A DNA stretch of 29,618 nucleotides from positions 1 through 29,618 of the forward strand of contig JALWSU010000056.1 in the NCBI GenBank assembly GCA_026993485.1. Reading direction: 5' to 3'. Made by a program: the position numbers and the translations under genes. This DNA comes from Thiotrichaceae bacterium. GTDB lineage: Bacteria > Pseudomonadota > Gammaproteobacteria > Beggiatoales > Beggiatoaceae. Under the pieces are notes generated by a model, which was not told where the DNA came from, did not search any database, and saw only the letters and a program-made list of their open reading frames with translations. Of this stretch, positions 13,863-29,059 are shown in pieces. Position 1 is the first letter of the stretch. Each line of letters opens with the position of its first letter.

Positions 13863-13864
13863 TT

Positions 13865-15582: not shown

Positions 15583-17364
15583 TTACTCCACTAGAGTAAT
15601 CCTACCCTTAGAACCACAATAAGAAATGTGTTTGTTCGCTCCATAATGTTTTTCGATATAGTTAATCACAATAGGAGTGGGATTAGATTCATATTCACGA
15701 CGGTCTTCTGGCACTTTCTCCAACATCTTATATCCATCGCCACCTGTTGCTACATAACTGTTGGTCACCACTGTGTACATTTGGTCTGGATCAAGAGGCA
15801 TACCGTCAATTTCTACTTGTTGGACTCCAATATTAGGATCCAAGATAAAGCTGATACCAGATACCTGTAAAAAACCACCTTTACCAACTTGGGTTGCATT
15901 ATAATTTAGAACAGTCATTAATTCTTTACCTGTTAATGTCAGTAGATGGGTTCTGTTGGTTGGAAAAGGTAAGACAGCCATGATATCTCCTATTGTCACA
16001 GGACCTTTCACCAGAGATGCTCTGATTCCACCACTGTTATAAATGGCAACATCGGCCCGAAAATGAAATTTTAAAATATCAGTCACAAAATCACCTAAAT
16101 TGGTTTCTTGCTCTCTAATAGTGTGCTTCGTTCCTTCCAAGGAACAATCATTTTGCGCTATGATTTTGCCATATTGTCGTTTCAGTTCGCTTTTCTTCGA
16201 TTGGATATATCTGCTAATGCCAGGATCAGGTGTTACCGTTTCATCAAGTGGTATCAGTTTAGCGTCAAAGCTGCTAAGTTTGCCTTCCCACAAGGTTACT
16301 TCCAGATGTCCTAAATATTGTCCTTCGGCACCTGCCTGCACAATGCAAGTCTTATTATTTTTGTTCTTGACCATCTCACATCCTTCAATAGCAGTGTGAG
16401 AGTCTCCGCCTATGATAATGTCAATACCTTCAACTTCTTTAGCCAGCTTTTTATCATTCTCAAGCCCAAGGTGGTTGACGAATACCACTAAATCAACACC
16501 CTTCTTTTTAAAATAAGACACTATTTCTTTTGCTTTCTTAAATTCGTCTTCAACACTACTATTCTTTAAGAAAATGGGATCCACCTTGGGCATTGCGAGA
16601 GAAAAATCTTGAGAAGCTACCAAACCTGCAACGCCCATTTTAATGCCGTTGACTTTCTTAATCAGCACCTTGCCAACTGGTTTATTTCTGATTTTATAAT
16701 TGGCAGTAACACAAGGGGCTTTGATTAAGCGACGCAGGTTTAGCAAATTATCTTGTCCAAAATCAAGCTCATGATTACCCATGGTATAAAATGATAAGCC
16801 CATCCGATTGAAAACTTCAGCTTCAATAGCCCCTTTAGAGGAGTTTGACAACAAGGAGCCTTGGATAAAATCTCCAGCATTGACGAGATAAGTGGGAATG
16901 TTGTACTGCCTATTTGCAGCTCGCAGTTTTTTTACCATTGTTGCCATTCTGGCAATGCCATTCACTTCATACTTCACTTTTTTCCCGTTAACCTTTTTCT
17001 TTTTTGTCCTTGGTTCCAAAGCACCATGGAAATCGTTGAAATATAAAAAGGCGAATTTTTGAAAAGTAAAAGGTTCCACAGTACCGTTAGCACTAGGTTC
17101 TGTTGGTGAAACACTGCCCGCCATTTGCGGTGGCGCATTGGGAATTACTAGCCGTTGGCCGACTAGTAGTTTATTGGGGTTCTGAAGCTTGTTGGCTTTG
17201 GAAATCTGTGGCCATTTATTGCCGTCACCATATACCTTCTGGGCTATAGTTGACAGCCATTCACCAGGTTTCACCACATAGTAATTATCTGCCCACATTG
17301 GGCTTGTAAACAATACTGTTAGCAAAAACGCAAAAACAGTAGTTATCCAATGACGTTTTCTCAT
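15583..17364 (-). CDS. Periplasmic bifunctional metallophosphoesterase/5'-nucleotidase (UshA/CpdB-like) with an N-terminal LysM domain; copy A
   Basis: 593 aa. Signal peptide 'MRKRHWITTVFAFLLTVLFTSPMWA'. LysM 'YVVKPGEWLSTIAQKVYGDGNKWPQISKANKL...LVGQRLVIP'. Calcineurin-like motifs 'YFNDFHG', 'GNHELDFG' and 'GGDSHT'. C-terminal 5'-nucleotidase domain 'YNSGGIRASL...SGISF'. Confidence 0.8.
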   Translation of the reverse strand: MRKRHWITTVFAFLLTVLFTSPMWADNYYVVKPGEWLSTIAQKVYGDGNKWPQISKANKLQNPNKLLVGQRLVIPNAPPQMAGSVSPTEPSANGTVEPFTFQKFAFLYFNDFHGALEPRTKKKKVNGKKVKYEVNGIARMATMVKKLRAANRQYNIPTYLVNAGDFIQGSLLSNSSKGAIEAEVFNRMGLSFYTMGNHELDFGQDNLLNLRRLIKAPCVTANYKIRNKPVGKVLIKKVNGIKMGVAGLVASQDFSLAMPKVDPIFLKNSSVEDEFKKAKEIVSYFKKKGVDLVVFVNHLGLENDKKLAKEVEGIDIIIGGDSHTAIEGCEMVKNKNNKTCIVQAGAEGQYLGHLEVTLWEGKLSSFDAKLIPLDETVTPDPGISRYIQSKKSELKRQYGKIIAQNDCSLEGTKHTIREQETNLGDFVTDILKFHFRADVAIYNSGGIRASLVKGPVTIGDIMAVLPFPTNRTHLLTLTGKELMTVLNYNATQVGKGGFLQVSGISFILDPNIGVQQVEIDGMPLDPDQMYTVVTNSYVATGGDGYKMLEKVPEDRREYESNPTPIVINYIEKHYGANKHISYCGSKGRITLVE

Positions 17365-17375
17365 ATAGTTACCTT

Positions 17376-19979
17376 TTATCGTATAGGAATCAAATCTATC
17401 ATGTTAATCAAATCCAATTTTCCAGTATAGTCTTTAGCAGAGCAGGTTTGATCATTACGTTCTATATATTTCACACGATTGTCAGAGATAAAATAGATCT
17501 GTTCTTCATTCCTGGAAAATACTGGAAACTTGGCCTTAAATCCACACGGTATTTCTACAATCTCTCCGTTTCGGAAATCAGGCTGGAGCAATAATGTTGA
17601 TTCATTAAGCGTGCGACTGAACGCGAAAAGTAGAGATTGACTGTTCATCGCAGGTGTAAGAAATTCAATATGTTGAGCATAGTTTGTCAACCATTTAAAT
17701 TGCTGAGCACTTGGACGATCAGGTTCATATAACACCACTTCCATGTGATTTGAAGTTACTTCTCTCCCTAAGAAGACAATATTCTCACTATCATTTAAGA
17801 AAGTGGGGCTTTGAATTCTGGCTATTTCGTGTGGCAGTGAGATTGGAATTATTTTCGGTTGAAAATCGTCGTTTAACTCGTATAAATTCATAATTTCCAG
17901 TGATTGAGAATCATAATCAATGGGAATATAAACTATTTTTTTACCATCTGGTGAAATAGAAGGCATTTTTCCAGGATCTTTGCAATCATTGATAATCGCT
18001 CTCGTTTCTAAGTTTACTAGGCAGATTTTCGCGTTTTTACCCAAGCTTTGTTGGAAAACTAGTAAATGTTTATCCTTTGAAATACTTGGATAAAGTTGAT
18101 AGTCTTCATGCTCTTTTAACAAGAGTTCGTTTTCGCCAGATGATTTCACCAAGAACAGTCTTTTCCAAACTTGATTACCAGACCCGCTCCGAGCGCAAAC
18201 GATAAAATCAAATTCACCAATTGGTTGCTCAGGCGGCACAGGCGGCGGCACAGGCGGCGTCACAGGCGGCACAGGTGTCACAGGTGGTGGTAGGAAAAAT
18301 AATACGACAAATGTGACAACTATCATTCCAACCACTGCCCAAAGGTATTTGTTTTCTTTCAAATCTACAAAATTATTGAAATCTAAGAAAATGTTCACCA
18401 GCCCTTTTTTAAGGGTAGCCACAATACCTAGCTTTATGAGGTATTTTTTTTCAATTTCCTTAGCTTTGTCTTTTGATATTCTTCTGTTTAAAACATAAGT
18501 ACTTCGTAAGCGTTTTACCTCATTTGTTTCTACACCATGAGGAGATTGCTTGCTTAACTCCTGACAACTATCTTTGTATTCATTTACCCAATCTATTTTC
18601 CTGATCTTATTTTCTATCTCCTCCGCTTGTTCGTGCTCTAAATGCAATTCTGTCAAGGCTTTATCTAACTCTATTCTTGCTGCTAGTGTAATAACGCCAT
18701 ACATTTCTACTTGTTTTGCATAAAATTTTTTCCTTTCTTCTATTGACAGCAGTGGCCGATCTATTGGTTCTTTAGTCCAAGAAGGTGGCCATATAGAACC
18801 ACCTCCCATAGGTTCAATATACTCTCCTGAAGGGAATTTATAAGCAATCCAATGTCTTAGTATATCAATCCTGAAACGGTAATTATTATTTTTTGTTTCT
18901 AATAGACGTGTGAATTTAATAAAGCCTGCGAGTGTTTTAAACAAATCGGGTTTAGAAACATTAAATCTTTGATTTTTTATTGTTTTGAAAATTTTGGAGG
19001 AGCTAACATACTTATTAGAGTCTTGAATGGTATTAGCCAAGGCGGCTAAAATTTCCTGCCCATACTTTGGCGCAGTATTTGGATTAGAAAAACTTTTCCA
19101 TGTTTCTTGAATATGCCCAGCGGGATTACGCATAATAAAATCAATAACAGCCTTCAAATCCTCTGCAACCACATAATTGCGTTTTAGTTTATCATTGACA
19201 TGATTAACTAAGCTATGACAAATATATTGCGTATAATAGGGCTGCCCTCCTGATAATCGGTAAATTTTCTCTAGGACTTTATCATCATAACTTAAATTTT
19301 TTCCTATGGGGTTTTGAATCAAATCCAGTGTATCAGGCATTGATAATTCTAGGATTTGGTACATTTGAGTAACAGGTTGCAATATCTTTTGGACATTAAT
19401 ATCTTCAAAGTCACGAGAACTGGTCATAACAAAGTGAACTGGCAAATTGAGGATTTCTGTTATCCAAAATAAGGCATTCGCCGATAAACTAGATTTGAAA
19501 AGCGGCTCAATAGAATCAAATTCATCACATAAAATAATGAGCTTTCTAGGTTGAATCTCGTTGAGACAATTTTGCACTAATTGTTCTAAACGAACTGTCC
19601 ACGAACTATTCTCTTTTTTGTCCATAAATTCAGCTTCAAATTGCTGAAATTTAGAATTTTCCAAGATAGCTTTTCCCACTTCAAAAGGAAAATCTTCATC
19701 TTGTTTAATCCTTGGAACCATCTTATGAAAATCACATAAAACTGCTTCACCAGCTTGATGAAATCTACCTTTCCGAATTTGCCATAAAATCGAGCTTTTT
19801 CCGGAGCGACGACCACCAATCAATAAAATCACTTTAGGACCATCAGTCATAATCCAATTTTGGATTATTCTTAAATCCTCTTTACGACCAAAAAACATTT
19901 CTTTGGATTTGATCGCATTGCCTACAATATAAGGATTTTGGATTGGTTTAAAGTCCTTGTATGTTGTTAGTTTGTTCAT
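17376..19979 (-). CDS. Membrane-anchored P-loop NTPase (AAA_16/STAND-like) fused through one transmembrane helix and a Pro-rich linker to a PD40/TolB-like beta-propeller; copy A, fused form
   Basis: 867 aa. 'FFGRKEDL...KVILLIGGRRSGKSSIL' is Walker A and 'LIILCDEFD' is Walker B. The transmembrane segment is 'YLWAVVGMIVVTFVVLFFL', followed by 'PPPVTPVPPVTPPVPPPVPP'. The C-terminal ~300 aa carry PD40-like repeats ('KMPSISPDGKKIVYI', 'YPSISKDKHLLVF', 'FPVFSRNEEQIYFIS'). It ends 11 nt before the nucleotidase gene. Confidence 0.7.
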   Translation of the reverse strand: MNKLTTYKDFKPIQNPYIVGNAIKSKEMFFGRKEDLRIIQNWIMTDGPKVILLIGGRRSGKSSILWQIRKGRFHQAGEAVLCDFHKMVPRIKQDEDFPFEVGKAILENSKFQQFEAEFMDKKENSSWTVRLEQLVQNCLNEIQPRKLIILCDEFDSIEPLFKSSLSANALFWITEILNLPVHFVMTSSRDFEDINVQKILQPVTQMYQILELSMPDTLDLIQNPIGKNLSYDDKVLEKIYRLSGGQPYYTQYICHSLVNHVNDKLKRNYVVAEDLKAVIDFIMRNPAGHIQETWKSFSNPNTAPKYGQEILAALANTIQDSNKYVSSSKIFKTIKNQRFNVSKPDLFKTLAGFIKFTRLLETKNNNYRFRIDILRHWIAYKFPSGEYIEPMGGGSIWPPSWTKEPIDRPLLSIEERKKFYAKQVEMYGVITLAARIELDKALTELHLEHEQAEEIENKIRKIDWVNEYKDSCQELSKQSPHGVETNEVKRLRSTYVLNRRISKDKAKEIEKKYLIKLGIVATLKKGLVNIFLDFNNFVDLKENKYLWAVVGMIVVTFVVLFFLPPPVTPVPPVTPPVPPPVPPEQPIGEFDFIVCARSGSGNQVWKRLFLVKSSGENELLLKEHEDYQLYPSISKDKHLLVFQQSLGKNAKICLVNLETRAIINDCKDPGKMPSISPDGKKIVYIPIDYDSQSLEIMNLYELNDDFQPKIIPISLPHEIARIQSPTFLNDSENIVFLGREVTSNHMEVVLYEPDRPSAQQFKWLTNYAQHIEFLTPAMNSQSLLFAFSRTLNESTLLLQPDFRNGEIVEIPCGFKAKFPVFSRNEEQIYFISDNRVKYIERNDQTCSAKDYTGKLDLINMIDLIPIR

Positions 19980-20017
19980 ATTTTTATTTTTACATGAATT
20001 TAGTAAAATTAATTGAA

Positions 20018-20050
20018 AAACGAACTAAATTTTAAATTTTTAGTTCGTTT
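20018..20050 (-). terminator. Hairpin 'aaacgaactaaa-...-tttagttcgttt' between copy B and copy A
   Basis: An 11-bp inverted repeat 22 nt after the 20072 stop. On the minus strand it is followed by ttcaattaatttt. Confidence 0.45.
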
Positions 20051-20071
20051 ATCCACGTTAATAAGCTACAC

Positions 20072-21661
20072 TTACTTCACTAAAATAATCCGATTCTTAG
20101 ACGCACAATAAGATATGTGTTTACTCGCTCCATAATGTTTTTCGATGTAGTTAATCACAATAGGAGTGGGATTGGATTCATATTCACGACGGTCTTCTGG
20201 CACTTTATCCAACATCTTATAACCATCGCCACCCGTTGCTACATAACTGTTGGTAACCACTGTGTATATTTGCTCTGGATTAAGAGGCATACCGTCAATT
20301 TTCACTTGTTGGACTCCAATATTAGGCTCCAAGATAAAGCTGATACCAGATACCTGTAAAAAACCACCTTTACCAACTTGGGTTGCATTATAATTTAGAA
20401 CAGTCATTAATTCTTTACCTGTTAATTTCAGTAAATGGGTTCTGTTGGTTGGAAAAGGTAAGGCAGCCATGATATCTCCTATTGTCACAGGACCTTTCGC
20501 CAGAGACGCTCTGATACCACCACTATTATAAATGGCAACATCCACCCGAAAGTGATCCTTTAAAATATCAGTCACAAAATCACCTAAATTGGTTTCTTGC
20601 TCTCTAATAGTGTGCTTTCTTCCTTCCAAGCGACAATCATTTTGCGCTATGATTCTACCATATTGTCGCTCCATTTCGTTTTTCTTCGATTGGATGTATC
20701 TGCTAATGCCAGGATCAGGTGTTACCGTTTCATCAAGTGGTATCAGTTCAGCGTGAAAGCTGTTAGGTTTACCATTCTGCAAGCTTACTTCCAAATGTCC
20801 TAAATATTGTCCTTCAGCACCTGCCTGCACAATGCAAGTTTGATTATTTGGGTTCTTGACCATCTCACAGCCTTCAATAGCTGTATGAGAATCTCCGCCT
20901 ATGATAATGTCAATACCTTCAACTGCTTTAGCCAGCTTTTTATCATTCTCAAGCCCAAGGTGGTTGACGAACACCACTAAATCAACACCCTTCTTTTTAA
21001 AATCAGACACTATTTCTCTCGCTTTCTTAAATTCGTCTTCAACACTACCATTCTTTAAGAATGTTGGATCCACCTTGGGTATTTCGAGAGAAAAATCTTG
21101 AGCCGCTACCAAACCTGCAACGCCCATCTTAATGCCGTTGACTGTTTTAATCAGCACTTTGCCAACTGGTTGATTTCGGATTTTATAATTGGCAGTAACA
21201 CAAGAGGCTTTGATTAAGTGGAGCAGGTTTAGCAAATTATCAGGACCAAAATCAAGCTCATGATTACCCATGGTATAAAATGATAAGCCCATCCGATTGA
21301 AAACTTCAGCTTCAATAGCCCCTTTAGATAAGTTTGACAACAAGGAACCTTGGATAAAATCTCCAGCATTGACGAGATAAGTGGGAATATTGTGGTTCTC
21401 ATTAGCTGCCCTTATCTGTTTGACCATAGCTGCCATTCTGGCAACGCCATACACTTCATACTTCAGTTTTTTCCCATTAACCTTTTTCTTTTTTGTCCTT
21501 GGTTCCAAAGCACCATGTAAATCGTTAAAATATAAAAAGGCGAATTTTTGAAGTGAATCACCAGGTTTCACCACATCGTCAGTCTGTGCCCATACTGGGC
21601 TTGTAAACAGTACTGTTAGCAAAAACGCAAAAACAGTAGTCATAAAATGACGTTTTCTCAT
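20072..21661 (-). CDS. Periplasmic metallophosphoesterase/5'-nucleotidase, copy B (LysM domain deleted)
   Basis: 529 aa. It matches copy A along its whole length, with long stretches of near-identical DNA. It has the same signal peptide, but 'VVKPGDSLQK|FAFLYFNDLHG' shows an in-frame loss of ~64 aa covering the LysM domain. Confidence 0.8.
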   Translation of the reverse strand: MRKRHFMTTVFAFLLTVLFTSPVWAQTDDVVKPGDSLQKFAFLYFNDLHGALEPRTKKKKVNGKKLKYEVYGVARMAAMVKQIRAANENHNIPTYLVNAGDFIQGSLLSNLSKGAIEAEVFNRMGLSFYTMGNHELDFGPDNLLNLLHLIKASCVTANYKIRNQPVGKVLIKTVNGIKMGVAGLVAAQDFSLEIPKVDPTFLKNGSVEDEFKKAREIVSDFKKKGVDLVVFVNHLGLENDKKLAKAVEGIDIIIGGDSHTAIEGCEMVKNPNNQTCIVQAGAEGQYLGHLEVSLQNGKPNSFHAELIPLDETVTPDPGISRYIQSKKNEMERQYGRIIAQNDCRLEGRKHTIREQETNLGDFVTDILKDHFRVDVAIYNSGGIRASLAKGPVTIGDIMAALPFPTNRTHLLKLTGKELMTVLNYNATQVGKGGFLQVSGISFILEPNIGVQQVKIDGMPLNPEQIYTVVTNSYVATGGDGYKMLDKVPEDRREYESNPTPIVINYIEKHYGASKHISYCASKNRIILVK

Positions 21662-21672
21662 ATAGTTACCTC

Positions 21673-22899
21673 TTATTGTATAGGAATTAAATCTATCATG
21701 TTAATCAAATCCAATTTGCCAGTATAGTCTTTAGCAGAGCAGGTTTTATCACTACGTTCTATATATTTCACACGATTGTCAGAGATAAAATAAATCTGTT
21801 TTTCATTCATGGAAAATACTGGAAACTTGGCCTTAAATCCACACGGTATTTCTACAATCTCTCCGTTTCGAAAATCAGGCTGGAGCAATAAGATTGATTC
21901 CTTATGCGTGTGACTTAACTCGAAAAGTAGAGAACGACTGTTCGTCGCAGGTGTAAGAAATTCAATATGTTGAGCATAGTTTGTCAACAATTTAAATTGC
22001 TTATCACTTGGACGATCAGGTTCATATAACACCACTTCCATGTAATTTGAAGTTACTTCTCTCCCTAAGAAGACAATATTCTCACTGTCATTTAAGAAAG
22101 TGGGCCTTTTAATTTTGGCTATTTCGTTGTGTGACAATGAGATTGGAATTCTCTTTTGCTTAAAATCGTTTAAATTCATAATCTCCATAGAGTTAGAATC
22201 TTCAATTGGCACATAAACTATCTTTTTGCCATCAGGAGAAATGGAAGGCATCTTGCCAGTGTGCATACAATTATTGGTAATAGCTCTAGTCTTTAAGTTG
22301 ACGATGCATATTTTGGCACTTTTAGCTAATCCTCTTTGGAAAACCAGCCATTTTTTATCCCTTGAAATACTGGGATGTAGTTGATAATTTTTAATATTTT
22401 TTAAAAATAGTTCTTTTTCTCCTGATGATTTTACCAAGAAAAGTCTTTTCCAATCTTTCTCAGATGGACTCCGAGCGCAAATGATAAAATCAAATTCACC
22501 CATTTTGCTTAGTGTTTTGTCGGGTAGCCCTTCTTGCCATTTTTGCCACTCTTCTTGTAATAATGCGACAAATATAATGACAACTATTATTACTACCACT
22601 ATCCAAAGATATTGGTTTTCTTTAAAATTTAAGAAAACATCCAACTGCCTTTTTAAGGTAGTAAGAATACTTGGTTTTGAGAGATAGTATCTTTCAATTT
22701 CCTTAGCTTTATGTTTTGAGATTTTTTCAGTCAAAACATAAGTACTTTGTAGGTGTTTTAGCTCAAATTTTGGCACGCCATTAGGATATTGCTTGCTTAA
22801 ATTTTGACAACTATCTTTGTATTCTTCTATTTCCTTTTCTCGTTCATTTTTCATACTATAATTAGCTACACTAACGATAGAATTTTCTCTTGAAATCAC
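21673..22899 (-). CDS. Transmembrane PD40/TolB-like beta-propeller protein, copy B; corresponds to the C-terminal half of the 867-aa copy A protein
   Basis: 408-aa ORF. It matches copy A from the linker '...EYKDSCQNLSKQ' through the transmembrane helix 'YLWIVVVIIVVIIFVALL' and the whole propeller. The real start is probably at 'MKNEREKEIEE' near 22854. It overlaps the upstream NTPase ORF by 29 nt in another frame. Confidence 0.7.
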   Translation of the reverse strand: MISRENSIVSVANYSMKNEREKEIEEYKDSCQNLSKQYPNGVPKFELKHLQSTYVLTEKISKHKAKEIERYYLSKPSILTTLKRQLDVFLNFKENQYLWIVVVIIVVIIFVALLQEEWQKWQEGLPDKTLSKMGEFDFIICARSPSEKDWKRLFLVKSSGEKELFLKNIKNYQLHPSISRDKKWLVFQRGLAKSAKICIVNLKTRAITNNCMHTGKMPSISPDGKKIVYVPIEDSNSMEIMNLNDFKQKRIPISLSHNEIAKIKRPTFLNDSENIVFLGREVTSNYMEVVLYEPDRPSDKQFKLLTNYAQHIEFLTPATNSRSLLFELSHTHKESILLLQPDFRNGEIVEIPCGFKAKFPVFSMNEKQIYFISDNRVKYIERSDKTCSAKDYTGKLDLINMIDLIPIQ

Positions 22900-23944
22900 T
22901 CAAGAAGTCTTTTATTATACTAAAGATATTCGGACTAGGTGGTGGTATTCCTATCCGTTCACGAAAAAAACGTTCCATTTGCCCTGCCGAAATTTCACGT
23001 TTATCTCTTGTAACCCAACCACGATCAACGAGATAATTATCCACTATCAAGTTTTTCTTCTTACGGCGACTTAGAATACTTACGATACTTTCTAGCTGTT
23101 GTGTTGTTAATGAAGAATAAATTTCTTCATAATAAGGAAGACACGCTTGATAAGCCTCATCAATTACCTGCTGAAATGATGATTCGCCAGTTTTTTCATA
23201 GTGTGATACCCATACCTTGCCCGCTTCTTGGAGCGGATAGGGGCTGTAGCCAAATTGTCCAATTAATTCAAAAATATCCTTTTCATTATTTTGCAAAGCT
23301 TCTGGCAATCTTTCAGAAATTAGACGGGTTACTTCAGTCAGGCTAAGTGGAAATAAGGCATAATAATCAAAAATGTTAAAAAAGGGAGAACCAGCTAACT
23401 CCACCGTCATTGCTAAATCCAATAAAGGCATTGGTGAAGTCACAATACACCCAACTGGACTATGCATGTAAAGCCATGATCTTAAACTTTCAAAAAAAGC
23501 AAGCTTATATTTTGGGTTAGCCACTATCAGATTGAAATTATCAATAATTAGAATTAACCTGCGGTTATTTTTTTCCAACCAATCTAAAATTTTGTCGTTA
23601 TCTGAAAAATCTTTTAAATTAGGTATGGCTAATACTTCTTCTATTTTGCTATAAATGACTTTGAAAAAAGCAGTTTCATCAGTTAATTGATGTTTAGCTG
23701 TATCAAAATATAGAAAAATATATTGATTTGCTTTGTCACCCAAGTAATGTTTTACAACGCTAGGTTCCTGAAGATATTTAACCAAAGACGTTTTGCCTTC
23801 CTTACTAAAACCATAAATGGCAAAACTTTGAACATCATCAGTTCCCAATCTTCCATAAGCATGTTGTAGCACAGTTCCTCTACCAACATGCTCTTGTGGA
23901 TTAAGACAGGGCCTTTCTGGATGAAAAGAGAATTTTTGTGTCAT
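22871..23944 (-). CDS. P-loop NTPase (AAA_16/STAND-like), copy B; a separate gene whose sequence diverges from the copy A NTPase
   Basis: 357 aa. 'HVGRG...FAIYGFSKEGKTSLVKYL' is Walker A and 'RLILIIDNFN' is Walker B. Its architecture matches the N-terminal domain of the 867-aa protein but the sequences are dissimilar. It starts 1 nt after the upstream 265-aa gene. Confidence 0.65.
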   Translation of the reverse strand: MTQKFSFHPERPCLNPQEHVGRGTVLQHAYGRLGTDDVQSFAIYGFSKEGKTSLVKYLQEPSVVKHYLGDKANQYIFLYFDTAKHQLTDETAFFKVIYSKIEEVLAIPNLKDFSDNDKILDWLEKNNRRLILIIDNFNLIVANPKYKLAFFESLRSWLYMHSPVGCIVTSPMPLLDLAMTVELAGSPFFNIFDYYALFPLSLTEVTRLISERLPEALQNNEKDIFELIGQFGYSPYPLQEAGKVWVSHYEKTGESSFQQVIDEAYQACLPYYEEIYSSLTTQQLESIVSILSRRKKKNLIVDNYLVDRGWVTRDKREISAGQMERFFRERIGIPPPSPNIFSIIKDFLSDFKRKFYR

Positions 23945-23945
23945 G

Positions 23946-24743
23946 TCATTTGCTCACTATCATTGCAATTAAATCTTTCCAATCAGGCTGCTGTTGTTGC
24001 GCGATGATATTGAGTTTTTGAATTTTCTCATCATCAAGTCCCAAGGTGATACCAAATTGGTATAAAATATCATAGTCCTTTTTGCTCAGCACTTTATCTT
24101 TCATGCCCAAACGATTGGCGGTGGTATATAACCATGATTGGTAAAAAATAAAGGAAAAGGCTTTCAAAGTATTAAAATCATCATCAGCTAAATAGCTTTG
24201 AAAAAATGCCGTCCATTCCCACGGCATTTTGCCGGTTTTTTCTAAATCGCGCCAATTGGCGAAATCACCAAAATCAAAAAGTTCAAAGAAAAACTGAATA
24301 ATCCCTTCCTTATTGTACTGTACCGTTGGTAAAGGCGGTAACCACCCACAAAATCCACTCGGATGAAGATAAAGATGTGACATTTTCCATGAACTATTTA
24401 AGCCTTTTTCTTGTGCATAAATCTCAAGCGATAGCGTTTGTTTGACAATCAATAGCTTTTCAATATTGGAAAAAGATAAAATAATGCTTTTGCTAGGTTT
24501 AAATTGACTCAGTTTTTTAGATAAAATGGTGGCTTCTAAAACTGGCTTGCTATCCAATTCTTGGCTATTTATTTGAATTTCATCAATATCTAAAATAGCT
24601 GGATGTAGCAAAGTTTGCCATTGCTGTAAGAAAGATTCATATTGTTTAATAACATTTTGTGCATCTTCCAAATTGGGTATTGGAATGGTGGCGACTAATT
24701 TATTATCTGTTTGAATCCAATTCGTTTGAGTTTCAATATTCAT
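23946..24743 (-). CDS. Hypothetical protein, first gene of the NTPase-propeller-nucleotidase operon
   Basis: 265-aa ORF with no signal peptide and no recognised motif. It is separated from the downstream NTPase gene by a 1-nt intergenic gap, and tandem hairpins lie upstream. Confidence 0.5.
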   Translation of the reverse strand: MNIETQTNWIQTDNKLVATIPIPNLEDAQNVIKQYESFLQQWQTLLHPAILDIDEIQINSQELDSKPVLEATILSKKLSQFKPSKSIILSFSNIEKLLIVKQTLSLEIYAQEKGLNSSWKMSHLYLHPSGFCGWLPPLPTVQYNKEGIIQFFFELFDFGDFANWRDLEKTGKMPWEWTAFFQSYLADDDFNTLKAFSFIFYQSWLYTTANRLGMKDKVLSKKDYDILYQFGITLGLDDEKIQKLNIIAQQQQPDWKDLIAMIVSK

Positions 24744-24763
24744 TTTATAGCCTTAAAATCAGA

Positions 24764-24833
24764 CCTCCGAGGAGAACAATACCTCGGAGGTCGTTGTATC
24801 TGTAACCTCCGAGGTATTGCTTTCCTCGGAGGT
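24764..24833. repeat. Two tandem hairpins built on the cctccgagg stem ('cctccgagg-agaacaata-cctcggagg' and 'acctccgagg-tattgcttt-cctcggaggt') separating the secreted-protein genes from the operon
   Basis: Perfect inverted repeats. The second is followed by ttttt on the plus strand. The stem sequence is the same as in the 9061-9096 hairpin. Confidence 0.6.
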
Positions 24834-24870
24834 TTTTCTTAATAGCAAGCTTCAGCGTAGAAACCAGAAG

Positions 24871-25311
24871 TTACTTATAACAAACCAAGACATTTGAATA
24901 ACCAGAACCGCTATACATTAACACCCCAATATAGTAAGTGCCTGACCATCTAGGAGAAACCGCCACTATTGGCGTTGCATCGCTTTTTTGATCACGGTCA
25001 ATTTCGTTATAATTTTCGTCCAGCATAATGATATCCAAGTCACGAACACTAGAATCGCCTGCTCCAATAATAAAATAGCTATTACCGCTGTACAGAGTAG
25101 TTCTGACTATATAGTAATCACCTTGACTCAAGTATTTGCCACTGGCATTATCACGGCAACCACCAGCCCCCCTATTTTCTATATAGCGTTTCACTTGACG
25201 CAATTTTCGCATTGACTGTGCATCCGACGCATAACTGATTGACGGAATAACCAATGCCATAAAGGCTGATACTAAAATAACCAATACTGATGTTTTACCA
25301 ATTTTCATCAT
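24871..25311 (-). CDS. Small secreted hypothetical protein (~147 aa)
   Basis: The ORF track gives 24871-25395. The likely start is the internal Met(s) at 25311/25308 ('MMKIGKTSVLVILVSAFMALVIPSISYA' is a signal peptide), which removes the overlap with the upstream gene. The protein is Gly/Ser/Tyr-rich and has no recognised domain. Confidence 0.5.
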   Translation of the reverse strand: MMKIGKTSVLVILVSAFMALVIPSISYASDAQSMRKLRQVKRYIENRGAGGCRDNASGKYLSQGDYYIVRTTLYSGNSYFIIGAGDSSVRDLDIIMLDENYNEIDRDQKSDATPIVAVSPRWSGTYYIGVLMYSGSGYSNVLVCYK

Positions 25312-25330
25312 TTTGATTTCCTCTAACCAG

Positions 25331-26146
25331 TTATTTAAATGAGAGTCTGAGTGCGCGAGCAATCTTCTTAACATCACCAAGGGTGATTTCACCACGTTTC
25401 TTGTTGACTATTGGTTTGATCTTTTTTAGCCCACGAACAAAGTTTTTAACAGTGCGATTGTTCCGAAATTCAGGAGTCGCTTTTTTTGTCAAGTGGTTGA
25501 TAAAATAATTAACCAGTTCTCCCCATCTGAACATGTCTAGTTGTTGACGGCTTGGTTGGGCATAACTTCCTACAGTACGGGCACCTAAGTACAAGGCTTT
25601 GAAATAAGCGGCGGCGAGTACAAGTACACCAGAATCACGTATTGACGGGTTTTTGTCCTTTTCTATCTGTGGAACAATTTCGTTGATTAAAGCATCCATT
25701 TTGTCACGCAAGGCTTTGCCTTTAAGCTTGCCAGTTTCCAGTTGATCTTTTAGCGTTTGTATTTCTGCTTTGATATTGGCAGGTAGTTCTAAAGAAACAA
25801 GCGCATTATAGGCTTGTTGTATAATTGCTTTTGAGGGCGGTGTGTCATCGTTACCACTATCCAAGACGACAAAGGCAATATCGGACAAGGTTTTGCCTAC
25901 TTCAAAAGAACGTTGTGGCAAACTCATTGATTGATAAGCTTTTGATTGGACAGTTATTAACTTGCCCCATTTTCCAGTAATGCCAGCATTTTTGGCATTT
26001 TTGTGGATTTCGTTGATTGAAGGCAAGTAGAGCTTTGCCTGTGTTTTTTGAGGCGTGAATGTGAATGTGGGTTTGCCATCACCTGCCCATGCTAAATTGC
26101 AAAATGACATCATGATAAATAATGTCAACAGTTTTTTTATAGTCAT
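25331..26146 (-). CDS. Secreted hypothetical protein
   Basis: 271 aa with signal peptide 'MTIKKLLTLFIMMSFCNLAWA'. No recognised domain; the C-terminus is basic. Confidence 0.5.
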   Translation of the reverse strand: MTIKKLLTLFIMMSFCNLAWAGDGKPTFTFTPQKTQAKLYLPSINEIHKNAKNAGITGKWGKLITVQSKAYQSMSLPQRSFEVGKTLSDIAFVVLDSGNDDTPPSKAIIQQAYNALVSLELPANIKAEIQTLKDQLETGKLKGKALRDKMDALINEIVPQIEKDKNPSIRDSGVLVLAAAYFKALYLGARTVGSYAQPSRQQLDMFRWGELVNYFINHLTKKATPEFRNNRTVKNFVRGLKKIKPIVNKKRGEITLGDVKKIARALRLSFK

Positions 26147-26202
26147 TGTTTCTCCTTGAGAAATTAATGTTAAAGTTGGAAAGGTTGTCCTTTCCGAGTG
26201 AT

Positions 26203-27636
26203 TTACCGATTACGCCATACAAAAGTAAGCCAAGCTAAGCTAAATGTAACAAGCGTTATCAGTAAAAGAATGAGCCATGTTGTTTGACTATGCTGTACTC
26301 TAAAAAATTTTAAGCGAGAGTCAATATTCATGGCATGAGCCAGTATAATTTGTTCTACTTCATTTAAATTTGTGCCAGTTCCGCGTATTACTTGTTCGAC
26401 TGCGTTTGAATAAACGCCACCTTCACCCCAAAAATTTTTGCCTGCTTCTTCTAAAAATTTAACTGAGGGTATGTGTTCTAGCAATAGTGTTGGTACAGTA
26501 AGCTTGCCATCAAGTTGTTCGGGATTTTCTCGACTTTGTTCTAGTTTGTCATAATATTCCTTTAAGACTTCAATATATTTAGATTCAGTTGCTGATACTT
26601 CTGGTGGTAGATCCTCGCTATCGCTGGCATAAAATAATGCTTCATACCAATAGTTGGCAATTTCCGGATGTTTATTGATTATTTCAGGTGGCCCTTTTTT
26701 ATCCCATTGTTTTCTTAATTCAGTAAGATAAGTACTGGGATCAAGTGATTTTAGACTTAAAGCTCCTGTGCCTATAAAGCTGCCACTCCTAAATTGCGTG
26801 CGTTCATCGTGTTCAATTTGATAGCGTGGCATTGAGACGTTTAAGTCTTGCTCAAATAAAAGGGCAGCGGCTTCAAAGCCCCAACGACTTACCATAAAAT
26901 CTGCGATAGTATGAACCATTGGATTCATACCAATAATCGGCTTAATAATGCTGCCACCTAATAGGATTTGAATAATCAATAAAAATGGTAGAACTGCATT
27001 CGCGGCTGAGCGCGTTTTAAAAAATGTTGATACAAACATCGCAACAGCGATAGAGGCAATAGCTGTTAGCCAGAGTAACAGAAAAAATTTAAAAAACAAG
27101 CTTGGCATTAAGATTGAGAAAAAACTGATAGATTCTGACTTAGCAATTATCAGCCCAGTTTCATACGGGTTTATCCAAGCTGGTAAAACGATAAAGATTA
27201 TGTGAAAAGTGAGAGTAAATAAAAAAACTTGTCCAAAAGCTATAATGGATAACGCTATAAATATAGAAAGAATAAAATCGAAACTGCTTAAAAAGCTCAG
27301 TCGCTCCTGTTGATATAAAATCATTGAACTTGGAATTTCGACTATGGCTTTAGACGTTCCAAACCAGACGGCTGTGAGTACGACTAGGAAAACAATGATA
27401 CTTACAGTATCTGAGGTTAGGTAATTTCGTAGTGGTTGAAAAATCTCACCGGCACCAAATGTTACAATAGTTTGAAAAACTAAGAAAAATGCAATTGCCA
27501 GAACTGGTGCTTGCAAAAAGGTGATACTTAAATCCGTCTTGTCTCTATAGAAGCTGAGTAAACGACGCTGAACTAATTTAAGAATCCGCTTTGAACGAGA
27601 ACTGGGGATGGCTGCAAAGTCGCTACTTGTTGTCAC
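26203..27636 (-). CDS. ABC transporter permease (ABC-2 type) with a large hydrophilic C-terminal region
   Basis: 477 aa with about six hydrophobic helices in the first ~250 residues. It overlaps the upstream ABC ATPase gene by 14 nt, suggesting translational coupling. Confidence 0.65.
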   Translation of the reverse strand: MTTSSDFAAIPSSRSKRILKLVQRRLLSFYRDKTDLSITFLQAPVLAIAFFLVFQTIVTFGAGEIFQPLRNYLTSDTVSIIVFLVVLTAVWFGTSKAIVEIPSSMILYQQERLSFLSSFDFILSIFIALSIIAFGQVFLFTLTFHIIFIVLPAWINPYETGLIIAKSESISFFSILMPSLFFKFFLLLWLTAIASIAVAMFVSTFFKTRSAANAVLPFLLIIQILLGGSIIKPIIGMNPMVHTIADFMVSRWGFEAAALLFEQDLNVSMPRYQIEHDERTQFRSGSFIGTGALSLKSLDPSTYLTELRKQWDKKGPPEIINKHPEIANYWYEALFYASDSEDLPPEVSATESKYIEVLKEYYDKLEQSRENPEQLDGKLTVPTLLLEHIPSVKFLEEAGKNFWGEGGVYSNAVEQVIRGTGTNLNEVEQIILAHAMNIDSRLKFFRVQHSQTTWLILLLITLVTFSLAWLTFVWRNR

Positions 27637-29059
27637 AGTTTTTTTCCTCAGAGAGTTTTGCCTCTAACTTTTTATAATAAGGAGACATTTTGTATATTTG
27701 GTGCCATTTTTCAGGTAGTGTTGTACGTTTTCCAGTTTTTGGATCTTTTTTCTCTAGGACATCAAATATGATTTTTGGCGATTTATAGGGAGAATGTTCT
27801 CCATGTGAAAAATATTTAATAGCCTCATCAGCAGGACCGTAGTATGCGATAAATCCACCGACATCAAGCACTAATAAGGTATCCATTAAGTCAAAGGCTT
27901 CAATATCAGGCGAGTGAATCGTTAATATAACCCCTTTGCCATTATCTGCAATCTGCCGTAGGTGTTTCAGAATGTTATCTGTATCTAAAGAGGATAGTCC
28001 CGAACAAACTTCGTCCGCCAGTAGAAAGGTTGGCTCTAACATTAATTCTAAAGCGAGATTAACCCTTTTTCTTTGCCCGCCAGAAATTGCCGAACAATAA
28101 TTATTTTGTTGTTTTTCTAAATTCATGGCTTTTAACAAGTCATCTACTTTTTGTTTTATAGCTTCCGGTGGCCAATCTGATGGGAGACGTAAGTTGGCGG
28201 CATAATGTAAATTTTCTTTAACAGTTAATTCGGGTATGACAACATCGTCTTGGGGTACAAAACCAATTTCTTTTAAAATTTCTGGATTTTTTTGAGTATT
28301 TTGACCTGACAAACAGATATGACCAGATCTAAGAGGAATGATTGCACGAATAGCTTTGAGTAAAGTTGATTTTCCTGCACCGCTAGGGCCAATAATACCC
28401 ATAAATTCACCAGATGGAATGCTTAATGAGCAATCGTGAATTAAATCTTGATGTTTGTTTTTGGGATGGGCGACATAAATATTTCTAAGCGTTAGGCAAT
28501 CATGAGTGGCTATTTGACTGGTTAATTTACCATTTGCTTTTAATTCTAGTTGATAAGAGCCTATTCTAATAATATTACCGTTTTGTAGTTTTTTGGTTTT
28601 TTTATCCGCTAAAAAACATATTTCCCATTGATTATTTTGACATTTTATTTCGAGAGCGTGCCAAGCTACGCGGGGAGAATAGAGTTGAATATCACAAATA
28701 TCTGATGCACCAACTAAGTTGGTTTTACCGTTTTGAAGCTGGTAATCAGTTTTGGATTGAGCCGAATCATTTTTGTTCTCTGAAGAAAAGCCGTTATTTT
28801 TGAGCAATTCTCCGAGCGTAAAAAAGACACCAGCGAGTTTTAGGGGCGTGAATTTATCAATACGCGCCATGACAACACCGCGTTGACGATGATCGACAGT
28901 CAGATTTTCCCGATTATCGCTTTTATTATGAATAAGATATTCAACAGCCGATACTGGGGTAACGGTTAGAAGAATTTTATCCGCCGAAGTGTCATCGGGT
29001 AATGGATAGGTACTGTTTGGCGTATTTCCTATTATAAGTTTTTTTTGGGTTAAATACAT
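27623..29059 (-). CDS. FHA-domain-containing ABC transporter ATP-binding protein
   Basis: 478 aa. The N-terminal FHA-like stretch is 'LVGASDICDIQLYSPRVAWHALEI...NGNIIRIGSYQLEL'. Walker A 'GPSGAGKSTLL', signature 'SGGQRKR', Walker B 'LLADE'. Confidence 0.8.
   Translation of the reverse strand: MYLTQKKLIIGNTPNSTYPLPDDTSADKILLTVTPVSAVEYLIHNKSDNRENLTVDHRQRGVVMARIDKFTPLKLAGVFFTLGELLKNNGFSSENKNDSAQSKTDYQLQNGKTNLVGASDICDIQLYSPRVAWHALEIKCQNNQWEICFLADKKTKKLQNGNIIRIGSYQLELKANGKLTSQIATHDCLTLRNIYVAHPKNKHQDLIHDCSLSIPSGEFMGIIGPSGAGKSTLLKAIRAIIPLRSGHICLSGQNTQKNPEILKEIGFVPQDDVVIPELTVKENLHYAANLRLPSDWPPEAIKQKVDDLLKAMNLEKQQNNYCSAISGGQRKRVNLALELMLEPTFLLADEVCSGLSSLDTDNILKHLRQIADNGKGVILTIHSPDIEAFDLMDTLLVLDVGGFIAYYGPADEAIKYFSHGEHSPYKSPKIIFDVLEKKDPKTGKRTTLPEKWHQIYKMSPYYKKLEAKLSEEKNCDNK

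What the first reader, a model, noticed from the sequence alone, without database searches (positions are those of the whole stretch)
21673..23944. Fusion versus fission polymorphism: NTPase and TM-propeller are one 867-aa protein in copy A but two ORFs overlapping by 29 nt in copy B
In copy B the NTPase ORF ends at 22871 and the TM-propeller ORF is open from 22899 in a different frame. A single-nucleotide indel inside 22871-22899 would join them into a ~760-aa protein analogous to the copy A fusion. The split could be a recent inactivating frameshift, a real two-subunit variant, or a programmed-frameshift site. The homology to copy A starts right at the linker ('EEIENKIRKIDWVNEYKDSCQ' against 'EKEIEEYKDSCQ'), so the junction is exactly where the two domains meet.
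Basis: seen in the sequence. Interest (0 to 1): 0.65.

Follow-up and report, generated by a model that had tools for sequence, protein, structure and literature searches.

The report
Truncated gene duplicate, not a frameshift
The two overlapping reading frames are two real, separate genes: a conserved stand-alone NTPase gene, and next to it a shortened duplicate of a neighbouring membrane-receptor gene that lost its ATPase part through duplication and deletion, which is an ordinary kind of gene-family evolution rather than a frameshift.

Summary
The ORF geometry is as described, on the minus strand. A 357-aa NTPase ORF ends at 22871. A TM-propeller ORF is open from GTG 22899 in the +1 frame. 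The fused 867-aa paralogue lies at 19979-17376. The interpretation does not hold.

- **The NTPase next to copy B is not the counterpart of copy A's ATPase.** Profile identity is 18%. It belongs to a conserved stand-alone nSTAND2 family, and 24 homologues of 343-359 aa all end at about the same place.
- **The ancestral order has no copy B.** In all 8 related loci that reach far enough, this gene is followed by an A-type gene beginning with the ATPase domain. The closest relative has nSTAND2, then the fused 856-aa orthologue.
- **Copy B is a lineage-specific 5'-truncated duplicate.** It carries the TM-propeller plus a 5'-nucleotidase. The ~35 nt after the nSTAND2 stop match the spacer after the copy-B nucleotidase stop. 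This points to tandem duplication of [spacer + A + nucleotidase], then a ~1.4-kb deletion of the ATPase.
- **Copy B is old and constrained.** dS is 0.2-0.4 and dN/dS is about 0.3.
- **No frameshift mechanism is visible.** There is no +1 slippery site. A second assembly reproduces the junction exactly.
- **The likely start is ATG 22854.** That gives a 16-nt gap, not an overlap.

The parts
22871..23944 (-). nB: stand-alone nSTAND2-type STAND NTPase, 357 aa. Walker A is GFSKEGKTS and Walker B is LILIIDNFN. It is a conserved separate gene.
   Evidence: Pfam nSTAND2 E=1.6e-13. 28 homologues of 42-81% identity were found. The 24 full-length homologues aligned are 343-359 aa and end within a few residues of each other.
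22855..22870 (-). 16-nt spacer between the nB stop and the first ATG of copy B. It begins with TGTAGCTAATTA, a relic of the ancestral nB-to-A spacer.
   Evidence: The 12-mer TGTAGCTWATTA occurs only twice in the window, at 22859-22870 and 20059-20070, each directly after a stop codon. The anchored alignment of the 38 nt after the nB stop with the 40 nt after the 5NT-B stop scores 14, a value reached by 23 of 20000 random windows.
21673..22854 (-). Copy B: an ATPase-less paralogue of gene A, 393 aa from ATG 22854 (408 aa if GTG 22899 is used, as in the public annotation P0094). It has a cytoplasmic three-helix module (about aa 2-57), a TM helix (about aa 82-99, nt 22558-22611) and a periplasmic TolB-like PD40 beta-propeller (about aa 120-373).
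   Evidence: 68% identity to A residues 465-867. Pfam PD40 24.5 bits against a cutoff of 20.9. AlphaFold model with pLDDT 68.8. Foldseek top hits are TolB, E=4e-11. dN/dS against A is 0.31 in the propeller and 0.38 in the linker.
20072..21661 (-). 5NT-B: secreted 5'-nucleotidase (Metallophos + 5_nucleotid_C), 529 aa. It is a duplicate of 5NT-A that lost the LysM domain through an in-frame deletion.
   Evidence: Pfam. 92% nucleotide identity to 5NT-A. dS 0.19 and dN/dS 0.35, with the LysM gap visible in the alignment.
19980..20071 (-). Spacer between 5NT-B and gene A. It starts with TGTAGCTTATTA and contains an AT-rich hairpin followed by a T-run (about 20015-20053). It is probably the intact form of the ancestral nB-to-A spacer, with a terminator.
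   Evidence: Fold -15.2 kcal/mol, z=-3.0. Inverted-repeat self-match at 20015-20053. 12-mer match.
17376..19979 (-). Gene A: the full-length receptor-like protein, 867 aa. It comprises an ATPase_2/nSTAND2-like NTPase (aa 1-~390), two helical linker repeats, a TM helix, a Pro-rich spacer and a TolB-like propeller.
   Evidence: Pfam ATPase_2 E=2.5e-8 and nSTAND2 E=1.7e-5. 58 homologues besides gene A itself, most sharing ATPase + linker + TM, with variable C-terminal domains. The orthologue P0036 is 71% identical over its full length.
15583..17364 (-). 5NT-A: LysM + 5'-nucleotidase, 593 aa. It is the partner gene of A and marks the end of the duplicated unit at 15582.
   Evidence: Pfam LysM, Metallophos and 5_nucleotid_C. 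A/B homology ends 1 nt after both stop codons.

Best explanation
**Shown.** The locus is a conserved pair of distantly related STAND NTPase genes from a large sulfur bacterium (Beggiatoaceae-like).
- The first is a stand-alone nSTAND2 NTPase (nB).
- It is followed by an 'A-type' gene. In that gene a paralogous ATPase is fused through a helical linker and one TM helix to a variable periplasmic domain, here a TolB-like propeller.
- The A-type gene is followed by a secreted LysM-5'-nucleotidase.

**Inferred from sequence signatures.**
- In this lineage the roughly 4.5-kb unit [spacer + A + 5'-nucleotidase] was tandemly duplicated. The duplicated unit runs from the first base after the nB stop to one base after the nucleotidase stop.
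- In the upstream copy, a deletion of about 1.4 kb then removed the rest of the spacer (including its hairpin terminator and A's start) and the whole ATPase domain. The likely deletion site is an ACGAAC microhomology.
- The deletion joined about 30 nt of former spacer to A codon ~448.
- A new ATG (22854) in the former spacer now opens the frame 16 nt after the nB stop.

**Result.** Two separate genes, not a frameshifted fusion. Copy B is an ATPase-less, single-pass membrane protein that keeps the conserved juxtamembrane helical module, the TM helix and the periplasmic propeller. Its own LysM-less nucleotidase lies downstream.

**Inferred function.** B is probably co-transcribed with nB and translated by coupling or re-initiation. 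It probably works with its nucleotidase as a periplasmic unit. The same propeller + nucleotidase cassette exists elsewhere without any ATPase.
For: **nB is an ancestral stand-alone gene.**
- 28 homologues of 42-81% identity were found.
- 24 full-length homologues, 343-359 aa, have co-terminal C-termini.

**Gene order in relatives.**
- In all 8 close loci with enough downstream sequence, nB is followed by a gene that starts with the A-type ATPase.
- The closest locus, L006, reads nB (81%) | 200 nt | full-length A orthologue (856 aa, 71%) | nucleotidase, with no copy B.

**nB and A's ATPase are only deep paralogues.**
- HHalign gives probability 93%, E=2.4e-7 and 18% identity.
- This fits the two-gene nSTAND2 operon described in PMC8195603.
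- Adjacent nB-like and A-like pairs occur in 62 of the fetched loci.

**The fused state is ancestral.**
- Most A-type homologues match from the ATPase through the linker, and many through the TM helix. Only the periplasmic domain varies.

**Duplication boundaries.**
- A/B DNA homology spans 18581-15582 against 22824-20071.
- The 12-mer TGTAGCTWATTA occurs only right after the nB stop and right after the 5NT-B stop.
- The 38 nt after the nB stop align with the spacer after 5NT-B, with an empirical p of about 1e-3.

**Constraint on B.**
- Propeller dN/dS is 0.31 against A and 0.34 against the L006 orthologue.
- Three-taxon branch estimates from the values give omega of about 0.33 on the B branch.
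- Nucleotidase dN/dS is 0.35.
- The 393-codon frame is intact despite 20% nucleotide divergence.

**The junction is real.**
- A Logan assembly of SRR13853571 is 100% identical over 25253-22057.

**ATPase-less cassettes exist elsewhere.**
- P0095 (Zn-ribbon, TM, propeller) is followed by a LysM-nucleotidase.
- P0099 is followed by a nucleotidase.
Against: - The order of events (duplication, then deletion) is inferred and cannot be distinguished from a single complex rearrangement.
- The ACGAAC microhomology and the de novo origin of the ATG rest on short, AT-rich alignments. The local alignment alone is reached by 147 of 2000 shuffles.
- Divergence is uneven. dS is about 0.34-0.43 in the TM-propeller and 0.19 in the nucleotidase. 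B is about as far from A as A is from the L006 orthologue. The duplication could therefore predate that split and have been lost in L006, or gene conversion has acted.
- The second junction (5NT-B to A, around 20071) has no independent assembly support.
- Expression and the true start codon of B are untested. No Shine-Dalgarno motif precedes either candidate start, although about half the genes in the window lack one as well.
- It is not known whether SRR13853571 is independent of the reads behind the window.
Confidence: 0.8

Rival explanations
1. Recent inactivating frameshift or sequencing error. On this reading, nB and the TM-propeller were one ~760-aa protein that a single-base indel in 22871-22899 split in two.
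For: The two frames differ by one base and the mechanical ORFs overlap by 29 nt. The fused product would have the same overall architecture as gene A.
Against: - The 24 full-length nB homologues aligned are 343-359 aa and end at the same place. None is fused.
- nB is not the duplicate of A's ATPase, at 18-22% identity.
- The sequence after the nB stop is homologous to an intergenic spacer, not to coding sequence.
- The overlap contains no homopolymer longer than 4.
- A second assembly is identical across the junction.
- B is old and under purifying selection.
Confidence: 0.03
2. Programmed +1 ribosomal frameshifting near the nB stop produces an nB-TM-propeller fusion in addition to free nB.
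For: The downstream frame is open for 26 nt before the nB stop. It is +1 relative to nB, as at prfB-type sites that shift at a stop codon.
Against: - The codons before the stop (AAG AGA AAA TTC TAT CGT TAG) contain no known +1 shift motif.
- The only re-pairing site (A AAA) supports a -1 slip. That slip enters the third frame and terminates after 5 codons (read directly).
- No Shine-Dalgarno-like stimulator is present.
- The region does not fold better than shuffled sequence (z=0.01).
- The arrangement is unique to this contig, so there is no conservation to support a recoding signal.
Confidence: 0.02
3. Copy B is a non-functional relic: a truncated duplicate that is no longer expressed or is on its way to decay.
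For: - It lost the ATPase, the original start and promoter region, 10 linker residues and the Pro-rich spacer. Its partner nucleotidase lost LysM.
- The B branch is about 1.7-2 times longer than the A branch, as estimated from the pairwise values.
- No other contig carries it.
Against: - The 393-codon ORF is intact in a 36% GC genome after about 20% nucleotide divergence.
- dN/dS is 0.31-0.38, no higher than for A against its orthologue.
- In the linker, B keeps ancestral residues that A has lost.
- All indels are in frame.
- ATPase-less propeller + nucleotidase cassettes are maintained in other organisms.
Confidence: 0.1
4. Genuine split receptor. On this reading B acts as a detached sensor subunit that docks, through its retained juxtamembrane helical module, onto the stand-alone NTPase nB or onto A. 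Together they form a non-covalent equivalent of the fused A-type protein.
For: - B retains exactly the family-conserved cytoplasmic module plus the TM helix and propeller.
- It is 16 nt downstream of nB, and the former terminator between them is deleted, so the two are probably co-expressed.
- nB and A-type NTPases are a conserved pair and were proposed to form hetero-oligomers (PMC8195603).
Against: - nB precedes A-type genes in all relatives, so it is not a partner specific to B.
- There is no evidence of any physical interaction.
- The arrangement is found only once.
Confidence: 0.1
5. Assembly chimera. On this reading the tandem A/B arrangement is an artefact of joining two strains' versions of the same locus.
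For: This is a metagenome-derived contig. The 5NT-B/A junction has no second assembly. The two nucleotidase copies are 92% identical, which can confuse assemblers.
Against: - The nB/B junction, which defines the truncation, is reproduced exactly in a second assembly.
- The spacer motif duplicated at both unit boundaries is what a true tandem duplication predicts.
- B differs from A by structured in-frame deletions rather than strain-level SNPs.
Confidence: 0.05

Closest known systems
Two-gene nSTAND2 NTPase operon (Kaur, Iyer, Burroughs, Aravind, eLife 2021; PMC8195603, Figure 6C)
   Same: There are two adjacent genes that each encode a STAND NTPase of the nSTAND2 type. One is stand-alone and one is fused to variable modules. 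Pfam nSTAND2 hits both nB and A, and the two are collinear deep paralogues. The pairing is conserved in 62 fetched loci across Gammaproteobacteria, Chloroflexota and others.
   Different: In the published system the fused partner has eroded NTP-binding motifs and carries intracellular effectors (GT4, HEPN). Here the fused partner A keeps Walker A (GGRRSGKS) and Walker B (LCDEF). The solo partner has DN in Walker B. The variable module lies beyond a TM helix, in the periplasm (TolB-like propeller, FGE-sulfatase, SBP_bac_3, cadherin-like). The extra ATPase-less copy B is not part of the described system.
TolB (Tol-Pal system periplasmic beta-propeller)
   Same: The C-terminal domain of A and B carries PD40 repeats. 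The model's best structural matches are TolB crystal structures, E=4e-11 over about 254 columns.
   Different: Sequence identity is 13-14%. The TIGR02800 score is 34-36 bits against a cutoff of 343. There is no TolB N-terminal domain. The protein is membrane-anchored by an N-terminal TM helix, with a cytoplasmic head. The genomic context is a nucleotidase, not tol-pal.
Gene fission by duplication and partial deletion (general mechanism for generating single-domain genes from multidomain ones; own knowledge of the comparative-genomics literature)
   Same: A full-length multidomain gene and a truncated paralogue that retains only the C-terminal modules lie side by side. The duplication boundaries are identifiable and a new start codon has been recruited from non-coding sequence.
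   Different: The adjacent upstream NTPase gives the false appearance of a frameshift-split fusion. The missing domain was deleted, not retained as a separate gene.
prfB / dnaX-type programmed ribosomal frameshift sites
   Same: Two ORFs overlap in different frames, with the downstream frame at +1.
   Different: There is no slippery motif, no stimulatory Shine-Dalgarno sequence or structure, and no conservation.

Membership tests
Frameshift-split (pseudo)gene | Homologues of the upstream ORF continue past its stop, with the similarity carrying on in the shifted frame. | tested here: not met
   All 24 aligned nB homologues (40-80% identity) terminate within a few residues of the window protein's end. 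None is longer than 379 aa among the close hits.
Frameshift-split (pseudo)gene | The two halves correspond to contiguous parts of one ancestral protein. | tested here: not met
   nB matches A's ATPase at only 18-22% identity, whereas B matches A at 68-72%. The sequence directly after the nB stop matches an intergenic spacer.
Frameshift-split (pseudo)gene | Relaxed selection on the split parts. | tested here: not met
   dN/dS is 0.31-0.38 for B against A, and 0.34 for the propeller against the L006 orthologue (0.43 over the whole shared region).
Programmed ribosomal frameshift site | A slippery sequence that allows tRNA re-pairing in the required (+1) direction inside the overlap. | tested here: not met
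   The overlap reads GTGATTTCAAGAGAAAATTCTATCGTTAG. It has no +1 motif. The A AAA site would give -1, into a frame that stops after 5 codons.
Programmed ribosomal frameshift site | A stimulatory element (upstream SD-like sequence or downstream structure) and conservation of the arrangement. | tested here: not met
   No SD-like motif. Fold z-score 0.01. The arrangement is absent from all related loci.
Tandem segmental duplication | Adjacent, collinear, same-strand homologous segments. | tested here: met
   18581-15582 against 22824-20071, at 80% and then 92% identity.
Tandem segmental duplication | The junction shows the start of the unit repeated after the end of the unit. | tested here: met
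   TGTAGCTWATTA and about 20 further alignable bases follow both the nB stop and the 5NT-B stop. Homology ends 1 nt after both nucleotidase stops.
Two-gene nSTAND2 system (PMC8195603) | Two adjacent genes, each with an nSTAND2-type STAND NTPase module. | tested here: met
   Pfam PF20702: nB 51 bits, A 24.7 bits (cutoff 24). HHalign probability 93% over 270 columns. Adjacency in 62 loci.
Two-gene nSTAND2 system (PMC8195603) | The NTPase fused to the variable module has eroded NTP-binding motifs. | tested here: not met
   The A family consensus keeps GgRRSGKTS and LcDEf. It is the solo nB that has D-N in Walker B.
Two-gene nSTAND2 system (PMC8195603) | The variable module is an intracellular effector (GT4, HEPN). 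| tested here: not met
   The variable parts follow a TM helix and are periplasmic-type domains: PD40, FGE-sulfatase, SBP_bac_3, cadherin-like, 5_nucleotid_C, PEGA.
TolB-like PD40 beta-propeller | PD40 repeat signature and a six-bladed propeller fold. | tested here: met
   PD40 24.5 bits against a cutoff of 20.9. The model is all-beta over aa 123-373. TolB is the top Foldseek hit, E=4e-11. Model confidence is only moderate (pLDDT 68.8).
TolB (equivalog) | Full-length match to TIGR02800 above the trusted cutoff. | tested here: not met
   34-36 bits against a cutoff of 343.
Known anti-phage defence systems (PADLOC) | A significant match to a defence-system protein model. | tested here: not met
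   Only weak P-loop-level hits for nB and A (E about 1e-5 to 1e-3), and none for B.

The most novel reading that the evidence does not exclude
Copy B could be a naturally detached sensor subunit. On this reading it is a membrane-anchored periplasmic propeller that keeps only the conserved juxtamembrane helical module. It signals by docking non-covalently onto the stand-alone nSTAND2 NTPase (nB) or into A/nB hetero-oligomers. That would show that transmembrane STAND receptors of this family are modular enough to work in trans. It would also show that tandem duplication plus deletion is a route by which new sensor specificities are plugged into one NTPase core.
Probability: 0.1. Interest if true: 0.5.

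Novelty: new member of a known kind. Interest (0 to 1): 0.25.

Why it matters
The main value is corrective. An apparent 'one indel away from a fusion' pair turns out to be two genuine genes, so it should not be annotated as a frameshifted pseudogene or a recoding site. The public 408-aa GTG-start model probably over-extends the gene by 15 codons.

The locus is also a clean, datable example of how a multidomain membrane receptor gene gives rise to a domain-truncated paralogue. The steps are tandem duplication, internal deletion, and recruitment of a start codon from a former spacer.

The wider context is of moderate interest. It is a conserved pair of nSTAND2-type NTPases in large sulfur bacteria. 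One of the two is coupled through a TM helix to rapidly exchanged periplasmic domains and to LysM-tagged partner enzymes. This context is largely undescribed experimentally, but it was not the subject of the finding.

Tried and rejected
- **Exact-protein look-ups.** Look-ups for gene A, for the 408-aa B model and for 5NT-B found no further contigs. The second duplication junction therefore could not be verified independently.
- **Word-indexed homologue search with B.** It returned only 5 proteins and missed A and P0036/P0037. The exhaustive phmmer search was needed, and it showed that only A and B match over the full length.
- **Consensus terminator scan.** It did not list the AT-rich hairpin after 5NT-B because that hairpin has too few G-C pairs. 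Direct folding showed it.
- **Promoter-like hits.** They were no more frequent than in shuffled sequence and were not used.
- **PADLOC and NCBIfam.** They gave no informative family for nB, A, B or the neighbouring small proteins.
- **Cluster look-up.** It returned no names or organism for the window's proteins. The Beggiatoaceae assignment rests on the names attached to homologues.
- **Origin of B's ATG.** I considered that it might be A's original start codon, retained after an in-frame internal deletion like the one seen in L009. The similarity is weak (10 of 15 nt by eye). The collinear match of B's first ~35 nt to the spacer fits better, so I preferred the spacer origin. The alternative is not excluded.
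- **Literature search.** A search for Beggiatoa + FGE-sulfatase gave nothing bearing on this locus.
Full report
**1. What is in the sequence**

All the genes concerned are on the minus strand. Reading 5' to 3' on that strand, they are:
- a 265-aa gene (24743-23946);
- a 357-aa NTPase, called nB here (23944-22871, stop TAG 22873-22871);
- an ORF open from GTG 22899 to 21673 (408 aa), called B;
- a 529-aa 5'-nucleotidase, 5NT-B (21661-20072);
- an 867-aa protein, A (19979-17376);
- a 593-aa LysM-5'-nucleotidase, 5NT-A (17364-15583).

The stated coordinates, the 29-nt mechanical overlap and the different frames are correct. B's frame is +1 relative to nB and opens directly after a TGA at 22902-22900.

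The first ATG of the B frame is at 22854 (MKNEREKEIEEYKDSCQ). With that start there is a 16-nt gap instead of an overlap. The public annotation uses the GTG start (P0094, 408 aa).

**2. The two 'NTPases' are not copies of each other**

- B matches A residues 465-867 at 68% identity (BLASTP) and 72% (phmmer). DNA homology runs from A 18581 / B 22824 to one base past both nucleotidase stop codons, at 80% and then 92% identity.
- nB matches A's ATPase at only 22% over 146 residues.
- A profile-profile comparison of the nB family with the A-type ATPase family gives probability 93%, E=2.4e-7 and 18% identity over 270 collinear columns.
- Pfam calls nB nSTAND2 (E=1.6e-13). It calls A ATPase_2 (E=2.5e-8) plus a borderline nSTAND2 match.

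The two are therefore ancient paralogues. They are not products of the event that made B.

**3. nB is a conserved stand-alone gene**

- A search of 5.8 billion proteins found 28 homologues of 42-81% identity. Apart from two partial sequences, they are 343-379 aa long.
- In an alignment of 24 of them, the C-termini end within a few residues of each other.
- Names attached to some hits place the family in Candidatus Parabeggiatoa, Candidatus Venteria ishoeyi, uncultured Thiomargarita and Candidatus Halobeggiatoa.

The stop at 22871 is therefore ancestral.

**4. Gene order in relatives**

- In every related locus that extends far enough downstream (L002, L005, L006, L009, L012, L090, L091, L094, and the start of the gene in L089), nB is followed by a gene that begins with the A-type ATPase domain.
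- The closest relative, L006, has nB at 81% identity and an A orthologue (P0036) at 71% identity over all 856 residues. It reads nB | 200-nt spacer | A orthologue | nucleotidase, with nothing corresponding to B in between.
- In more distant loci, mostly Chloroflexota, an nB-like gene of about 435 aa sits directly after an A-like gene of 850-1800 aa.
- Adjacent pairs were found in 62 of the fetched loci.

This is the two-gene operon of nSTAND2 NTPases described by Kaur et al. 2021 (PMC8195603). Here, however, the fused partner keeps its Walker motifs and its variable module is periplasmic.

**5. The fused state of A is ancestral**

- 58 homologues of A were found besides A itself. Most share the ATPase and helical linker, and many extend through the TM helix (query coverage 58-70% in the closer hits).
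- They differ after the membrane: FGE-sulfatase, SBP_bac_3, cadherin-like, PEGA, 5_nucleotid_C, or the PD40 propeller.
- The juxtamembrane 'YKDSC...KAKEIE' module with which B begins is conserved in members that carry quite different periplasmic domains.
- An exhaustive phmmer search of 1.84 billion representatives found only B itself and A as full-length matches.

**6. How B arose (inferred)**

- The 12-mer TGTAGCTWATTA occurs only twice in the window: immediately after the nB stop (22870-22859) and immediately after the 5NT-B stop (20070-20059).
- The similarity extends further. The 38 nt after the nB stop align collinearly with the spacer after 5NT-B. Only 23 of 20000 random windows reach that score.
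- The A/B homology ends one base after both nucleotidase stops.

This is the signature of a tandem duplication of the unit [spacer + A + nucleotidase].

The upstream copy then lost about 1.4 kb:
- the rest of the spacer, including an AT-rich hairpin with a T-run that still follows 5NT-B (-15.2 kcal/mol, z=-3.0);
- A's start;
- the whole ATPase.

Both partners carry ACGAAC at the inferred break: spacer ...AAACGAACTAA..., and A codons 447-449 ...CACGAACAAG... (read). B's ATG and first few codons therefore derive from former spacer.

Later in-frame changes removed 10 linker residues (NKIRKIDWVN, present in P0036), replaced the Pro-rich spacer, and deleted the LysM domain of 5NT-B.

The order of events and the exact breakpoints are inferences from short AT-rich alignments.

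**7. B is old and constrained**

Nei-Gojobori estimates are as follows.

| Comparison | Region | dN/dS | dS |
|---|---|---|---|
| A against B | propeller | 0.31 | 0.34 |
| A against L006 orthologue | propeller | 0.32 | 0.28 |
| B against L006 orthologue | propeller | 0.34 | 0.37 |
| A against B | linker | 0.38 | 0.60 |
| 5NT-A against 5NT-B | nucleotidase | 0.35 | 0.19 |

- Three-taxon branch estimates from these numbers give omega of about 0.33 on the B branch.
- In the linker, B retains residues shared with P0036 that A has changed.
- A 393-codon frame that stays intact after about 20% nucleotide divergence in a 36% GC genome also argues for function.
- The uneven dS, lower in the nucleotidase, suggests gene conversion. 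It leaves the age of the duplication relative to the L006 split unresolved.

**8. Artefact and recoding**

- A Logan assembly of SRR13853571 is 100% identical over 25253-22057, which covers the junction. Whether that run is independent of the window's own reads is unknown.
- The overlap has no homopolymer longer than four bases.
- A +1 shift would be needed, and the codons before the stop (AAG AGA AAA TTC TAT CGT TAG) contain no known +1 motif.
- A slip at A AAA would be -1, into a frame that stops after five codons.
- There is no SD-like stimulator, and about half the genes in the window lack SD motifs anyway.
- The region folds no better than shuffled sequence (z=0.01).

**9. What B is likely to do**

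- The model of B has moderate confidence (pLDDT 68.8). It shows a three-helix cytoplasmic module (aa 2-57), a long TM helix and an all-beta domain.
- The best structural matches of that domain are TolB propellers, E=4e-11. It is not TolB itself: TIGR02800 scores 34 bits against a cutoff of 343.
- Basic residues precede the TM helix, and A's ATPase must be cytoplasmic, so the propeller is periplasmic (inference).
- The nucleotidases carry signal peptides.
- The pairing [membrane-anchored propeller] + [LysM-5'-nucleotidase] recurs without any ATPase. P0095 has a zinc-ribbon head, a TM helix, a Pro-rich spacer and the propeller, and is followed by a 599-aa LysM-nucleotidase. P0099 has linker repeats plus the propeller and is followed by a nucleotidase.
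- In L007 a nucleotidase C-domain is fused directly to an A-type protein.

The propeller and the nucleotidase therefore look like a functional periplasmic unit with an exchangeable cytoplasmic head. B plus 5NT-B is most likely a working ATPase-less version of that unit. It is probably co-transcribed with nB, because the former terminator was deleted. Whether B talks to nB or A is untested.

**10. Verdict**

'Fusion versus fission' by frameshift is not what happened. The split is a truncated duplicate sitting behind an unrelated, conserved NTPase gene. This is an ordinary outcome of gene-family evolution in a rearrangement-prone locus. Interest is low to moderate.

Noticed in passing
L009 2614-3603 (uncultured Thiomargarita sp., contig coverage about 3x): The A-type orthologue downstream of nB has an in-frame internal deletion. 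ATPase residues 1-~186 (...LPVYFVMT) are joined directly to the juxtamembrane segment (VKEIYEYHLSKQSFVTTL..ENKYLW), the TM helix and the propeller. This would be a second, independent loss of ATPase sequence in this gene family, or a low-coverage assembly artefact.
   Followed up: partly
L169/L170 6001-8956; L171 600-3466: A conserved two-gene cassette [membrane-anchored or linker-bearing PD40 propeller] + [(LysM-)5'-nucleotidase] exists without any ATPase. P0095 has a zinc-ribbon head. P0099 has only linker repeats. The neighbours in L169 include trypsin-like protease, PEGA, metacaspase and LysM-SBP_bac_3 genes.
   Followed up: partly
window 22871-29059 (minus strand) and L002/L005 2700-9065: nB is the last gene of a block conserved in relatives at 76-81% nucleotide identity. 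The block is: ABC ATPase with a long N-terminal extension (27623-29059), ABC-2 permease (26203-27636), a 271-aa and a ~142-aa secreted-looking protein, and a 265-aa protein whose stop is 1 nt from the nB start. The function of the block is unknown, and none of the small proteins has a Pfam, PADLOC or NCBIfam hit.
   Followed up: partly
window 24871-25395 and 25331-26146: The 174-aa GTG ORF overlaps the 271-aa ORF by 65 nt. Orthologues of this gene are 142-144 aa. The real start is therefore probably the internal ATG (MMKIGKTSVLV...), and the overlap is another artefact of using the longest ORF.
   Followed up: no
window 20072-21661 versus 15583-17364: 5NT-B has lost the LysM domain (about 64 aa) through a clean in-frame deletion, while keeping the signal peptide and the first residues of LysM (VVKPGD). 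LysM is present in 5NT-A and in the L006, L007 and L169 orthologues.
   Followed up: yes
L007 117-12812: Three A-type genes lie in tandem, each with a different periplasmic module: cadherin-like + 5_nucleotid_C; SBP_bac_3 + the same PD40 propeller; and FGE-sulfatase. This indicates rapid module exchange in the family, and it includes a Rosetta-stone fusion of the nucleotidase C-domain to an A-type protein.
   Followed up: partly
L006 2225-2360; L009 2405-2590; window 1351-1416, 3345-3476, 8878-8913: GC-rich palindromic, REP-like repeats (for example ...CTCGTTCCCACGCTCTGCGTGGGAATGCCTGCC...) fill the nB-A spacers of relatives. Related short repeats occur in intergenic regions of the window, but not at the nB/B junction.
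   Followed up: no
window 12864-14581 (+) and 383-1265 (-): An XhoI-type restriction-modification pair (N6_N4 methylase + XhoI endonuclease, E=9.5e-82) lies just beyond the 256-aa gene that follows 5NT-A. A SocA/Panacea-domain antitoxin gene with an overlapping 137-aa partner lies at the window's left end.
   Followed up: no
nB family alignment A1; window 23540-23530 region (Walker B): The stand-alone nB family has an invariant Walker A lysine, but D-N-F-N instead of an acidic pair in Walker B (D135 nearly invariant, N138 invariant). The fused A family keeps D-E. This is the opposite of the published nSTAND2 pair, where the fused partner is the degenerate one.
   Followed up: partly
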